A stretch of DNA of 64,000 bases from Octopus sinensis (Eukaryota). Below are positions 24,437 through 58,725 of this stretch, in pieces; within the stretch, counting starts at the first letter, position 1, and each line of letters opens with the position of its first letter. Made by a program: the position numbers and the translations under genes. Below the pieces are notes generated by a model. That model did no database searches and was not told where the DNA came from. It saw only the letters and a program-made list of their open reading frames with translations. The stretch covers positions 200,942,001 to 201,006,000 of the forward strand of contig NC_042998.1 of assembly GCF_006345805.1 (NCBI RefSeq), read 5' to 3'.

Positions 24437-24467
<31 letters not shown>

Positions 24468-24480
24468 TATATACATATTG

Positions 24481-24512
<32 letters not shown>

Positions 24513-24514
<2 letters not shown>

Positions 24515-24919
24515 CAATAATAAATCTCTGAACGATGTATAGACAGTAACTGCATGACAATGGGAAATATATTTGCCATCTAAATATGGCTAATCACTAA
24601 GGGTGGATGTTACTGTAGCTTTTAGCCCGAGGAGAACATCTTCTCCAGCTGGCTATTGACACACTTTCTGTGCCCTATCAGTATTTGCAAAGGGACGTCA
24701 TCCTTCCCTCGTCAACCTAAGTGATACGCACGGACTGCAGTTTCTAGGTATTGACCCGTCATCAGCGCACGACAACGACCGGTTTTGGATGGAAGGGTTC
24801 CAATGCAAATACATATATCCTTTTTCCAGTGACTTTCCGTCACTGATCTGGAAAAAGTGTAAACAAGCAATAATAAATCTCTGAACGAGGTATAGACAAT
24901 AACTGCACGACAACGTGAA

Positions 24920-24920
<1 letters not shown>
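24513..24920 (-). mobile_element. Retrozyme/PLE-pLTR-like element: 353-bp unit with ~48-bp terminal direct repeat, in (TA)n
   Basis: agcaataataaatctctgaacgaNgtatagacaNtaactgcaYgacaa occurs at 24513 and 24866. There is (TA)n on both flanks and an internal HHR. Confidence 0.8.
24727..24771 (-). ncRNA. Minimal type I hammerhead ribozyme
   Basis: cgtgcg-CTGATGA-c-gggt(caat)acct-a-GAAA-ctgcag-TC-cgtgcg. Stem I is 6 bp with two G-U pairs, stem III is palindromic (actgcagt), the triplet is GUC, and there is a C-A mismatch closing stem II. Confidence 0.7.
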
Positions 24921-24957
<37 letters not shown>

Positions 24958-27460: not shown

Positions 27461-27930
27461 GCGGCGAGCTGGCAGAAAGGTTAGCACGCCGGGCGAAATG
27501 CGTAGCTGTATTTCGTCTGCCGTACGTTCTGAGTTCAAATTCCGCCGAGGTCGACTTTGCTTTTCATCCTTTCGGGGGTCGATAAATAAAGTACCAGTTA
27601 TGCTCTGAGGTAGATGTAATCGACTTAATCCGGTTGTCTGTCCTTGTTTGTCCCCTCTGTGCTTAGCCCCTTCTGGGTAGTAAAGAAATATATATTTAAG
27701 GCGGTGAGCTGGCAGAAACGTTAGCATGCAGGGCGAAATGCGTAGCCGAATTTCGTCTGCCGTTACGATCTGGGTTCATATTCCGCCGAGGTCGACTTTG
27801 CCTTTCATCCTTTCGGGGTCGATAAATTACGTACCAGTTACACACTGGGATCAATGTAATCGACTTAATCCGTTTGTCTGTCCTTGTTTGTCCCCTCTGT
27901 GTTTAGTCCCTTGTGGGTAGTAAAGAAATA
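27461..27930 (+). mobile_element. Two tandem full-length SINE family B copies (27461-27690, 27699-27930)
   Basis: Head gcggYgagctggcagaa with B box gagttcaaattcc, core gtcgactttgcctttcatcctttcggggtcgataaa..gtacc (resembles the Nin/Deu-type SINE core), and tail gggtagtaaagaaata. Confidence 0.9.
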
Positions 27931-28737
27931 TATATTCCACTTACTACTTCCTCTAATGTTGAGACTGAATTTCATATTTCGTGTTTTAAATACGAATGGA
28001 AGGGAATTTCCCATGAACTTTGAATGGTAATCGAAGCTGATGACTAGAATGTCAGGTGAGAAATGTGTGCACATAGATTCATAAAATAAATGTCAAAACG
28101 GTGAAATATTTAGTTGTTCCCAAACCAGAGATCTGGTCTGAATAATTTAAATGTAGTTCGACCTTTTAAAGGTGCCAAGAAGATTATATTATTATTAATA
28201 TTCCCACCAACAAACTGGGTCTATTATTCTACAACTGATACATTTCGACAGTGAAAAGCGAATTTGCTTCTAGACTTAATTATAGCCCAAGACTTCTGTC
28301 CTCAACGCATAAATTTACGAGTATGCATAATAAAAGACCCCCTACAGTATTTACATCATTGAAAAAAGTTTATCAGCCCAAGAGCTAGGGAATGCTCATT
28401 ACGAAGTAGTGCTCTTATATGTGAAAAAATAGTTCGGGTCATACCATAGATTTACTCCACAAAGGGACATGGGAAACAAAGAATTTCGCCAAAATTTAAA
28501 GATATAGATCACATTTCAGTAATTGTAGCATAGCATCAAATCTTCCCTGGATAACAAGATATTTTAATACAAGAAATTAATAGTGCATTTCATGTTATGA
28601 TAAATAAGTAGCATTTTACAAATTATTGTTCATTGACTACTCTTTTATGATGCAATTATCGGACATGTACAAAGATCAAGTGTATCTTGAATTGTCACAT
28701 GTGTGTGTGTGTGTACAGATATGTGTGTGTATATATA

Positions 28738-34822: not shown

Positions 34823-36800
34823 TATGTTTGACTTTTGCTTTATATTTGTACAAGTTGGCTCCAAGTCTCACCCAGAGACCTCAAGAGACAACAGGGTTGG
34901 AAGTTCATGTTGTTGTTATGCTAGTGGCCATATATTTGGGGGGGGGGGGGATGTTGTACTAATGAATGTCTAAAAAAAAAAAACTGTTTTTTTTTTTTTT
35001 TTTTTTAAACCGAAAATTATGGTTGTTTTAAACCTTGAGGTTACATAGAGAGTATTTTGCGTAGGATAGGAGCAGTTCCCATGAGCACTATCTTTTGAAC
35101 TTCTGCCATTTGTGGGTTTCCTGGTATCTGAGTTAGGTAGCTATCAGCCCCTTTTGCTATCATTCCCAGGGCACCTATGACAACAGGTATTGTTTTAGTC
35201 TTCAGCTTCCACATTTTGCTGATTTCTATTTCAAGATCTTTATATTTGCTCAGTTTTTGGTAGGTCCTGACAGATACGTTTATATCGATTGGGACAGTCA
35301 TATCAATGAGGAGGCATGTTCTTTGTTTGAAGTCTTTCAATATGATGTCTGGCCTATTTGCATCTATCTTCCTGTCAGTTTGAATGGTGAAGTTCCAGAG
35401 GAGTGAGATGTGGTCATTTTCAAGCACTGGGGGGTGGTTTTTGTGTCCCACCAGTTTTTTTCATGGGGCAAATCCAGGTTTTTACAGATTACCCAGTGAA
35501 TATATTGTGCAGCTCTATCGTGCCTGTTGAGATACTCTGTAGGCGCTAGAAGACTGCACTTGGAGACCACATGGTCAATGGTTTCATTTTGTTGCTTGCA
35601 TACACGACACGTTGGACTGCTTCTGATCTTTAATATGTTGGCCTGGTAGTTTCTTGTTGGTAGGCATTGATCTTGAGCTGCTATGATAAACCCCTCTGTT
35701 TCAGATTTTAAGCCAGAGGCCATTAGCCATTGATGGGTCAGGGCTTTGTCGATATCTGCATTATTCGCTCTCTTTCGGTATTTGCCGTAGAGAGGTTTTC
35801 TTGCCATTTATTATTCAGAATATCTAAGGCCGCAGTTTTGGCACGGGTTTTCATGCGCCTAGCTTTTTCTGTGCTTGTTTCTTGTATGTCTATCTCTAAT
35901 TCCGAAATTGGTTGTATTCGGAATTCACTTAGATATTCCTTTGCCTGTTTTGTGACTGAGTATGATGCTTTCTTGTTTTCATGTTTTGAGACAGGTTTTA
36001 ACATCCAGTCCTCAGAGTTTTTCAGGTAGGTGTCTAGGCCAATTGTAGCAATCTTCATTGTTATTGCCAGTTGCAAAAGACCACGGCCTCCCTCTTTTCT
36101 TGGCAGATAGAGTCGTTCTGTATCTGCCTTAGGGTGGTGCATTCTATGCATTGTCAACAGTTTCCTTATTTTTCTGTCGAGCTGACATATTTCAGTAATT
36201 GACCAGTTAACATATTGAAACTGTAAGTCACGACTGGTATAGCTAATGCATTGATTGCTTCGATCCTGTTTCTTGCATTCAGCTCTGTCTTGAGTATTGC
36301 TCTCACTCTTCGATAGCATTCTCTCCTGATCCTTTCCTTCATCTCTGAATGCCTTATTCCGTTCCCTTCAATTACCCCTAGGTACTTGTAGCTCTCCGCG
36401 GGCGGGTCTAGTTCTTTTATGACATTCTGTTGGTCAAGGTTAACGTTAGATGTTTCTGTCATTTTTCCTTTGATAAAGGTAGCCTTTGCACATTTATCGA
36501 GGCCGAATTGCATTTGATGTCGTCACTGAATTGTTTGACTATCGCTAGTAAGCCCTTGAGTTGTTGATCATTGTTGCAAAAAGCTTTAAATCATCCATGT
36601 AAACGAGATGATTTATATTTTTATCAAACATTTTATACCCGTACTGCGCGTCATTGAGCAGCTTTGAGAGAGGTATTAAGGATAAACAAAAGAGGAGTGG
36701 TGACAGTGAGTCACCCTGGAAAATGCCACACGAAATTTTACATCACCAGCATTTAGGGATTCACTGTCACTGTTCAGAGTTAGTGTGGTCTCCATGATCT
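34822..36800 (-). mobile_element. R4/Dong-clade non-LTR retrotransposon, 5'-truncated, frameshifted, in (TAA)n
   Basis: GIFQGDSLSPLLF, HLVYMDDL, FGLDKCAK, YKYLG, LYLPRKEGGRGL, AAQDQ..TRNY, zinc motif CRVC..ETIDHVVSKC..YLNRHD, and REL motif NRPDII..LIDMTVP..KLSKY. (TAA)n lies on both flanks. Confidence 0.92.
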
Positions 36801-57898: not shown

Positions 57899-58725
57899 TT
57901 GTTTCAGTCACTTGACTGCGGCCATCCAGGATCACCGCCTTTAGTCGTGCAGAATCGACCCCAGGACTTATTCTTTGTAAGCCTAGTATTTATTCTATCG
58001 GTCTCATTTGCCGAACCGCTAAGTTACGGGGGCGTAAACACACCAGCATCTGGTTGTCAAGCGATATTGGAGGTAGAAACACAGACACACAAACATATAC
58101 ACACACACACATATCTATATCTACATATACGATGTGCTTCTTTCAGTTTCCATCAACCAAATCCACTCACAAGGCTTTGGTCGGCCCGAGGCTATAGTAG
58201 AAGACACTTGCCGAAGGTACCACGCAGTGGGACTGAACCCGGGAACCTATTTCTGTATTACCCACAAGGGGCTAAACATAGAGGGGACAAACAAAGACAG
58301 ACACAGGTATTAAGTCGATTACATCGACCCCAGTGCGTAACTGGTACTTAATTTATCGACCCCAGAAGGATGAAAGGCAAAGTCGACCTCGGCGGAATTT
58401 GAACTCAGAACGTAACGGCAGACGAAATACCTATTTCTTTATTACCCACAAGGGGCTAAACATAGAGGGGACAAACAAGGACAGACATAGGTATTAAGTC
58501 GATTATATCGACCCCAGAGCGTAACTGGTACTTAATTTATCGACCCCGAAAGGATGAAAGGCAAAGTTGACCTCGGCGGAATTTGAACTCACAACGTAAC
58601 GACAGACGAAATACCGCTAAGCATTTCATCCGGCGTGCTAACGTTTCTGCCAGCTCGCCGTCTTGTGGGACTGAACCCGGGAACCATGTGGTTGGTAAGC
58701 AAGCTACTTACCTCCTAGCCACATA
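57897..58725 (-). mobile_element. SINE family A interrupted by a SINE B dimer (58248-58664) with a 21-bp TSD
   Basis: gtgggactgaacccgggaacc occurs at 58227-58247 and 58665-58685, flanking one full and one 5'-truncated family B unit. Confidence 0.9.

What the first reader, a model, noticed from the sequence alone, without database searches (positions are those of the whole stretch)
24513..24920. 353-bp retrozyme-like monomer plus ~48-bp redundancy with a compact 45-nt hammerhead
This is the cleanest retrozyme-like insert: exact (TA)n flanks, a unit length of a few hundred nt, and one minimal HHR per unit on the minus strand (predicted cut between 24733 and 24732). It also has strong accessory hairpins (tttttccagtgac-tttcc-gtcactgatctggaaaaa; ggagaa-catc-ttctcc). 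The two copies of the terminal repeat differ at several positions, so the insert is not brand new or the template was a heterogeneous multimer.
Basis: partly seen in the sequence, partly recalled or inferred. Interest (0 to 1): 0.75.

Follow-up and report, generated by a model that had tools for sequence, protein, structure and literature searches.

The report
Worn Penelope-type hammerhead retrozyme copy
This is one aged copy of a scattered, protein-less 353-base repeat that carries a predicted self-cutting RNA motif and is likely pasted around the genome by a borrowed Penelope-type enzyme; it is a new member of the known animal retrozymes, with a likely small-nuclear-RNA-type promoter at whose predicted start site other jumping genes land.

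Summary
In detail: window 24514-24920 is a 353-bp unit plus 54 bp (not 48) of a second turn, between (TA)n, with a type I hammerhead motif on the minus strand. It belongs to a dispersed non-coding family: 94 exact matches to a 33-nt ribozyme pattern, with sister families at 70-82% whose helices covary. Insertions look Penelope-made: 3' ends at two fixed sites 46 nt apart, inverted arms pairing one end of each kind (23 of 25), (TA)n targets and 8-15-bp duplications. Copies run through the predicted cut (20 of 20), so the template was likely a circle or an uncut multimer. A U1/U2-like motif lies 57 nt above a site where LINE-type elements sit in 10 of 73 loci. This copy is not the cleanest: about 5% decay weakens its predicted ribozyme fold, it holds one ribozyme only, and age explains the repeat differences. 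No autonomous partner was found; cleavage and expression are untested. Earlier notes of this scan report the same picture on other DNA of this genome. Verdict: new member of a known kind.

The parts
24514..24920 (-). Whole insertion: one single arm of 1.15 turns of a 353-bp non-coding unit
24514..24866 (-). Full unit, 43% GC, longest reading frame 38 codons when read as a circle; 94% identical to the family majority
24867..24920 (-). Partial second turn (54 bp), 6 differences from the first; ends in microhomology with the (TA)n flank
24514..24559 (-). 46-nt tail between the two fixed 3' end sites of the family (unit positions 1 and about 47); predicted reverse-transcription start sites
   Evidence: tail concept from PMC8557442 and PMC11167929
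24514..24720 (-). Conserved folded 3' region (several hairpins, compensatory changes across three families); likely binding site of the borrowed enzyme (inferred)
24631..24646 (-). Six-pair hairpin with GAUG loop, one pair changed on both sides in sister families
24727..24771 (-). Type I hammerhead motif: intact core, 6-bp stem I, 4-bp stem II next to an unpaired C and A, short palindromic stem III; predicted cut between 24733 and 24732
24721..24779 (-). Distal stem I helix (24779-24775 with 24721-24725); damaged in this copy at 24776-24777
24765..24791 (-). Predicted transcription start (about 24790) and the stretch in which LINE-type elements are inserted in other copies; empty in this copy
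24826..24847 (-). ATCAGTG motif (24847-24841) like the upstream element of this genome's U1 and U2 genes, overlapping a conserved hairpin
24467..24513 (.). Left (TA)n target microsatellite
24921..24953 (.). Right (TA)n target microsatellite

Best explanation
This is an aged, single-arm genomic copy of a non-coding hammerhead-bearing repeat (a non-LTR retrozyme) that was likely inserted by the reverse transcriptase-endonuclease of a Penelope-like element copying a unit-length RNA template for more than one turn. Shown by sequence: multi-copy family, fixed double 3' ends, tandem and inverted arms, (TA)n targets, long target duplications, conserved ribozyme fold. Inferred: tandem copies are transcribed from a U1/U2-type promoter inside each unit; two hammerheads pair through their palindromic stem III and cut out a 353-nt monomer, which is likely closed into a circle; the borrowed enzyme nicks AT-rich DNA, starts at one of two internal sites 46 nt apart (one for each target strand when two arms form) and runs round the template, which also restores the promoter that lies upstream of the start site. 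I put the circle at about 55% and an uncut multimer at about 40%. This copy has one ribozyme with a weakened predicted fold, so it is likely a dead end.
For: 79 matches from the 40 best of 4927 candidates, 87-95% identical, on many contigs; 94 exact ribozyme-pattern matches, control 0. Of 155 arms in 102 loci, 71 begin at unit position 1-10, 61 at 44-55 and 23 elsewhere; of 32 inverted pairs, 25 had both arms classed and 23 pair one of each (P about 1e-5). 58 of 131 outer 3' ends have (TA)4 within 30 nt, against 153 of 3431 background windows. 14 of 33 non-microsatellite loci have exact flanking duplications of 8-15 nt. These match the tail, inverted arms and microsatellite bias of Penelope-like elements (PMC8557442 passages) and the two internal start sites shown in vitro (PMC11167929 parts 1-2). 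Of 30 segments chosen on unit 53-153 alone, 20 reach the cut region and all 20 run past it; 14 of 97 arms in pattern-fetched loci exceed one turn, and one array has over five. Neighbouring turns share 35% and paired arms 45% of their variants, against 15% between insertions (sister family 40%, 30%, 7%). Named helices: 95.3% of 617 cells paired, 6 pairs with change on both sides, slid controls 30-51%. Stem III self-duplex -11.1 against +2.9 kcal/mol as a hairpin; the palindrome changes but is mostly kept across families. ATCAGT lies at -57 to -61 in 24 of 24 U1/U2 loci and at -57 from 24790.
Against: No autonomous partner: the profile of the three families matched only other non-coding repeats in the Penelope-like loci fetched. 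Rfam does not recognise the ribozyme, and its stem II is flanked by an unpaired C and A. Cleavage is untested; 8 of 9 frog retrozyme dimers did not cleave in vitro (10.64898/2026.07.22.740005). The purified anole enzyme used uncut RNA and needed no ribozyme activity, so no circle is required. Turns within one insertion still differ by 6%, which limits the single-template test, and few shared variants are unique to their locus (6 of 126). The count of pairs with two-sided change did not exceed shuffles (205 of 500), and the 20 rows represent three families only. The start site is inferred, the promoter motif was picked by eye, and free 5' ends there are not clearly enriched (7 of 51, P 0.06).
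Confidence: 0.8

Rival explanations
1. Same element and same borrowed enzyme, but the template is an uncut linear multimer read from a tandem source locus; the ribozyme is a passenger or acts at another step, and no circle is made.
For: The anole Penelope-like enzyme inserts uncut RNA equally well with a dead ribozyme (PMC11167929). Tandem source arrays exist (L022, L068). Run-through of the cut site and shared variants between turns are also expected from a homogeneous array.
Against: Core and stems are kept across families at 70-82% identity, and core positions vary less among copies (3 of 319) than non-CpG background (404 of 8666), so cleavage has probably mattered. Circles are shown for coral, mussel and axolotl retrozymes (PMC7229834 passages and sections 14 and 17).
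Confidence: 0.35
2. The insert is only the 5'-truncated end repeat of an autonomous Penelope-like element, not an independent element.
For: All insertion hallmarks are those of Penelope-like elements. Frog retrozymes are related to such end repeats.
Against: Units join head to tail with no reading frame between them. In the family loci searched, Penelope-like protein fragments occur at six places, none closer than about 250 bases to a unit end (not inspected base by base). Two young autonomous families share no sequence with the unit.
Confidence: 0.07
3. A satellite-like repeat spread at the DNA level, with a chance or relic hammerhead.
For: No Rfam match; the window copy alone does not fold into the ribozyme.
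Against: Fixed 3' ends with variable 5' ends, paired inverted arms and target duplications are marks of reverse transcription; helices covary between families.
Confidence: 0.03

Closest known systems
Metazoan non-LTR retrozymes (coral, mussel 350-390 bp, axolotl; PMC7229834, passages and sections 14 and 17 read; bioRxiv 10.64898/2026.07.22.740005, parts 1-3 of 5 read)
   Same: Unit of a few hundred bases, GC under 45%, one type I hammerhead per unit, monomers to multimers, no protein, long target duplications, co-occurrence with Penelope-like elements.
   Different: Different sequence and host; cleavage and circles untested here. The parts read do not describe two fixed ends, paired arms, the promoter motif or LINE targeting. 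This copy is a monomer and would not count as active under the preprint's two-ribozyme rule.
Endonuclease-bearing Penelope-like elements and their hammerheads (PMC8557442 passages; PMC11167929 parts 1-2 of 4; PMC4209133 passages)
   Same: Tail at one end, partial tandems, inverted 5'-truncated arms, microsatellite targets, two internal start sites, short palindromic helix III, extra base after position 9.
   Different: No reading frame; tail 46 nt rather than 30-40; a further unpaired base before G12; no homologous autonomous element found.
Newt satellite 2 (snRNA-type promoter as cited in PMC2220036, passage seen; the original paper PMC308520 was not held)
   Same: Tandem hammerhead repeat with an internal snRNA-type promoter.
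   Different: Here the promoter is only inferred from motif and spacing; the family is mostly dispersed.
Target-specific Tx1-clade LINEs (Tx1 in Tx1D, Keno in U2, Tx1-Mar; PMC4494074 passages)
   Same: LINE-type elements inserted at a fixed site of a multicopy sequence.
   Different: The target here is a retrozyme start region; clade assignment rests on domain layout and recall, no tree was built; not present in the window copy.

Membership tests
Non-LTR retrozyme | Type I hammerhead motif in each unit | tested here: met
   Descriptor scan and cross-family pair counts; Rfam models gave no match
Non-LTR retrozyme | Unit of 150-450 bp, low GC | tested here: met
   353 bp, 43% GC
Non-LTR retrozyme | Multi-copy, with tandem units | tested here: met
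   94 pattern matches; arrays of two to over five turns
Non-LTR retrozyme | No coding capacity | tested here: met
   Longest frame 38 codons on either strand of the circle
Non-LTR retrozyme | Target duplications longer than 4 bp where present | tested here: met
   14 of 33 non-microsatellite loci with 8-15 nt; not discernible in this (TA)n site
Non-LTR retrozyme | Self-cleavage, as monomer or dimer | not testable with these tools
   Only folding energies
Non-LTR retrozyme | Unit-length linear and circular RNA in tissues | tested here: inconclusive
   Only contigs of runs guessed to be RNA were available
Active retrozyme locus (preprint definition) | Two or more consecutive units with a complete hammerhead | tested here: not met
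   The window copy has one hammerhead; other loci such as L022 and L068 meet it
Autonomous Penelope-like element | Reverse transcriptase plus GIY-YIG reading frame | tested here: not met
   No frame in the unit or joined to it
Penelope-mobilised element | Tail: two alternative 3' ends some 30-45 nt apart | tested here: met
   71 and 61 of 155 arms at two sites 46 nt apart
Penelope-mobilised element | Partial tandems and inverted 5'-truncated arms | tested here: met
   32 inverted pairs in 102 loci
Penelope-mobilised element | Insertion bias for microsatellites or AT-rich DNA | tested here: met
   58 of 131 ends against 4.5% background
Penelope-mobilised element | Sequence shared with the end repeat of an autonomous partner | tested here: inconclusive
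   None in the families sampled; the sample is a small part of the genome's Penelope-like elements
snRNA-type promoter | Proximal element about 60 bp above the start | tested here: inconclusive
   Motif and spacing match 24 of 24 U1/U2 loci, but the start site is inferred

The most novel reading that the evidence does not exclude
The family is a circular-RNA parasite with a built-in logic: its snRNA-type promoter lies upstream of its own start site, so only a ribozyme-made circle or a multimer can hand the promoter on; a Penelope-type enzyme copies it from two fixed sites, one per target strand; and several LINE-type elements parasitise it in turn by landing at the start site to use that promoter. 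That would be a three-tier system in which retrozyme mobilisation, still an open question, can be reconstituted.
Probability: 0.4. Interest if true: 0.68.

Novelty: new member of a known kind. Interest (0 to 1): 0.42.

Why it matters
How animal retrozymes are transcribed and pasted into genomes is proposed but not shown in the papers read (PMC7229834 discussion; the 2026 preprint's own limits). This family gives base-level predictions: a start site, a cut site, two priming sites and a pairing rule for inverted arms. The class, the tail and an snRNA-type promoter in newt satellite 2 all have precedent, and this scan has noted the same picture at several other loci of this genome, so this particular worn copy adds confirmation more than news. 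Searches for retrozyme with Tx1, retrozyme with proximal sequence element, and hammerhead ribozyme with cephalopod gave 0, 0 and 4 papers, the two listed not on this topic by title; subscription journals are not covered.

Tried and rejected
Rfam at gathering score and at E up to 10: no hammerhead model matched. Autonomous partner: a high-copy family with 781-codon frames, a younger two-frame family and the 30 best GIY-YIG loci plus 16 longer stretches share no sequence with the unit; a ribozyme-like match inside the first family is coding sequence; the sister copy next to the element in L201 is a separate insertion divided by microsatellite; an end comparison with the second family scored below shuffles (435 of 500 as high); a remote profile hit led only to another non-coding repeat of about 470 bp. 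Loci with ribozymes 5-7 kb apart were segmental repeats or LINE insertions, not full Penelope-like elements. Expression: no RNA holder listed on record; contigs of six runs guessed to be RNA carry family sequence, but two large runs of unknown kind show the same uneven cover, so nothing follows; two contigs stop at 24791, but one of these runs has a strand-switch joint there, so I do not count them. Pile-up of 5' ends at the predicted cut: absent (3 of 132 arms, 3.4 expected, in a sample biased to span it; 0 of 20 in the unbiased sample). Pile-up at unit 267-278 is mostly due to inserted elements. The original newt promoter paper was not held. Supplements of the papers were not opened; those of the bioRxiv preprint are closed and those of PMC7229834 and PMC4209133 may list related mollusc hammerheads.

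Full report
Observation. The window holds a 353-bp unit at 24514-24866 and 54 bp of a second turn at 24867-24920, between (TA)n arrays. The minus strand has a type I hammerhead motif at 24771-24727 with the predicted cut between 24733 and 24732, the only hit of two descriptor scans of the window. Rfam does not report it. The unit has 43% GC and no frame over 38 codons. The window is repeat-rich animal DNA; I saw no clear host gene among its frames, but did not search them against families. Earlier AI notes call the host an octopus; I did not test that.

Family. A DNA search of the own genome scored 40 of 4927 candidates and gave 79 matches at 84-95% identity besides the window. A 33-nt ribozyme pattern has 94 exact matches and its reversed control none; 92 of the 94 lie in DNA I fetched. 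These are lower bounds. Two sister families at 70-82% identity turned up, and a more remote non-coding repeat.

Insertion anatomy. After dropping six loci fetched twice or duplicated, 102 loci gave 155 arms: 71 begin at unit position 1-10, 61 at 44-55, 23 elsewhere. In the 73 pattern-fetched loci alone the counts are 45, 52 and 12 of 109. The other end is free. Of 32 inverted pairs, 7 had an unclassed arm; of the remaining 25, 23 pair one end of each kind (P about 1e-5). (TA)4 lies within 30 nt of 58 of 131 outer 3' ends against 4.5% of background windows, and 14 of 33 non-microsatellite loci have flanking duplications of 8-15 nt. Tail, partial tandems, inverted arms and microsatellite bias are described for Penelope-like elements (PMC8557442, passages), and the tail was traced to two internal start sites of the enzyme (PMC11167929, parts 1-2 of 4). 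The window copy is a single arm of the tail-bearing kind.

Template. Arms do not stop at the predicted cut: of 30 segments chosen only on unit 53-153, 20 reach it and all 20 pass it. 14 of 97 arms in pattern-fetched loci exceed one turn. With two array loci left out, neighbouring turns share 35% and paired arms 45% of their variants against 15% between insertions. So one template was likely read more than once. This excludes a cut linear monomer as the usual template but does not separate a circle from an uncut multimer; turns still differ by 6%, and only 6 of 126 shared variants are unique to their locus.

Ribozyme. On 20 units from three families, 31 named pairs are formed in 95.3% of 617 cells; 6 pairs change on both sides, in stems I and II and both accessory hairpins; slid controls give 30-51%; the count of such pairs does not beat shuffles (205 of 500) while the covariation score does (0 of 500). 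Stem III is a palindrome that varies between families and is far more stable as a two-molecule duplex than as a hairpin, as described for dimeric animal hammerheads (PMC4209133, passages). Core positions vary less than background among 29 copies not chosen by the pattern (3 of 319 against 404 of 8666); search bias may add to this.

This copy. It differs from the majority at 21 of 353 positions, five of them common variants. Changes at 24776-24777 and 24746 hit stems I and II; predicted stem I pairing falls from 0.74 to 0.06. The 6 differences between its two turns are each a rare base against the majority base and fit decay after insertion. With one ribozyme it cannot release a unit-length RNA by itself.

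Promoter and lodgers. In 10 of 73 pattern-fetched loci the arm ends at unit 267-278 because another element sits there, in the same sense. L064 holds a LINE with endonuclease, reverse transcriptase and zinc-binding domains and a 14-bp duplication. In 6 of 8 further loci refetched, the upstream half of the unit lies beyond the insert, which is either a related LINE or a 1.6-1.9-kb element with only first-frame similarity. All 24 U1 and U2 loci fetched have ATCAGT at -57 to -61; the unit has it at -57 from 24790, which begins AT as they do (about 3e-4 per position by chance, 0.11 anywhere in the unit). The youngest sister family matches the U1 motif over 11 bases. The lead came from earlier notes and was tested here. 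Vertebrate snRNA genes have such an element about 60 bp upstream (PMC4494074, passage), and newt satellite 2 is cited as having an snRNA-type promoter (PMC2220036, passage). The motif also forms one strand of a conserved hairpin, so its conservation has a second possible cause, and free 5' ends near the site are only weakly enriched (7 of 51, P 0.06).

What failed. No autonomous partner was found among the Penelope-like families sampled, although families with intact frames exist. Run contigs say nothing on expression.

Comparison and verdict. It meets every sequence feature of the metazoan non-LTR retrozymes that could be tested (PMC7229834; 10.64898/2026.07.22.740005, parts 1-3 of 5); cleavage and circles are untested. 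It works like a non-autonomous Penelope-type element but is not an autonomous one. Searches found no paper joining retrozymes with Tx1 or with a proximal sequence element and no listed paper on cephalopod retrozymes by title. Earlier notes of this scan describe the same anatomy at other loci of this genome; none lay near this window or matched by sequence. New member of a known kind; interest 0.42.

Noticed in passing
L064:2034-7549; L272-L279: Full LINEs and 1.6-1.9-kb elements with only first-frame similarity sit at unit 252-278 of this repeat in 10 of 73 loci, in the same sense, with 13-16-bp duplications; two loci hold two stacked elements.
   Followed up: partly
L099-L106; L069-L098: High-copy Penelope-like family with intact 780-880-codon reverse transcriptase plus GIY-YIG frames and no canonical hammerhead in the eight long stretches scanned.
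   Followed up: partly
L201:3245-6318; L242-L271: Very young Penelope-like family (99-100% identity) with two overlapping frames; older copies have an intact hammerhead core in the end repeat while the youngest carry a changed core.
   Followed up: partly
L280-L294: Younger sister retrozyme family (96-98% identity, about 351 bp) with many multi-turn two-armed insertions; a better subject for experiments than the window copy.
   Followed up: partly
L296-L315: Remote sister repeat of about 470 bp, young and two-armed, whose hammerhead core departs from the usual sequence.
   Followed up: no
L010:2180-2675: Ten tandem 50-bp repeats of unit 226-276, each holding half of the hammerhead, at the 5' end of one arm; looks like repeated template slippage.
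   Followed up: no
L061-L062: A 5.3-kb segment holding a truncated unit and an inserted element is repeated three times in tandem at 97% identity.
   Followed up: no
L177-L200: U1 and U2 genes of this genome (42 and 48 matches scored) share an ATCAGT motif about 58 bp upstream.
   Followed up: yes
window 35044-36522: Broken non-LTR retrotransposon frames on the minus strand, judged from the translation only.
   Followed up: no
window 27461-27936 and 58245-58615: Tandem pairs (240 bp and 184 bp) of abundant short repeats.
   Followed up: no
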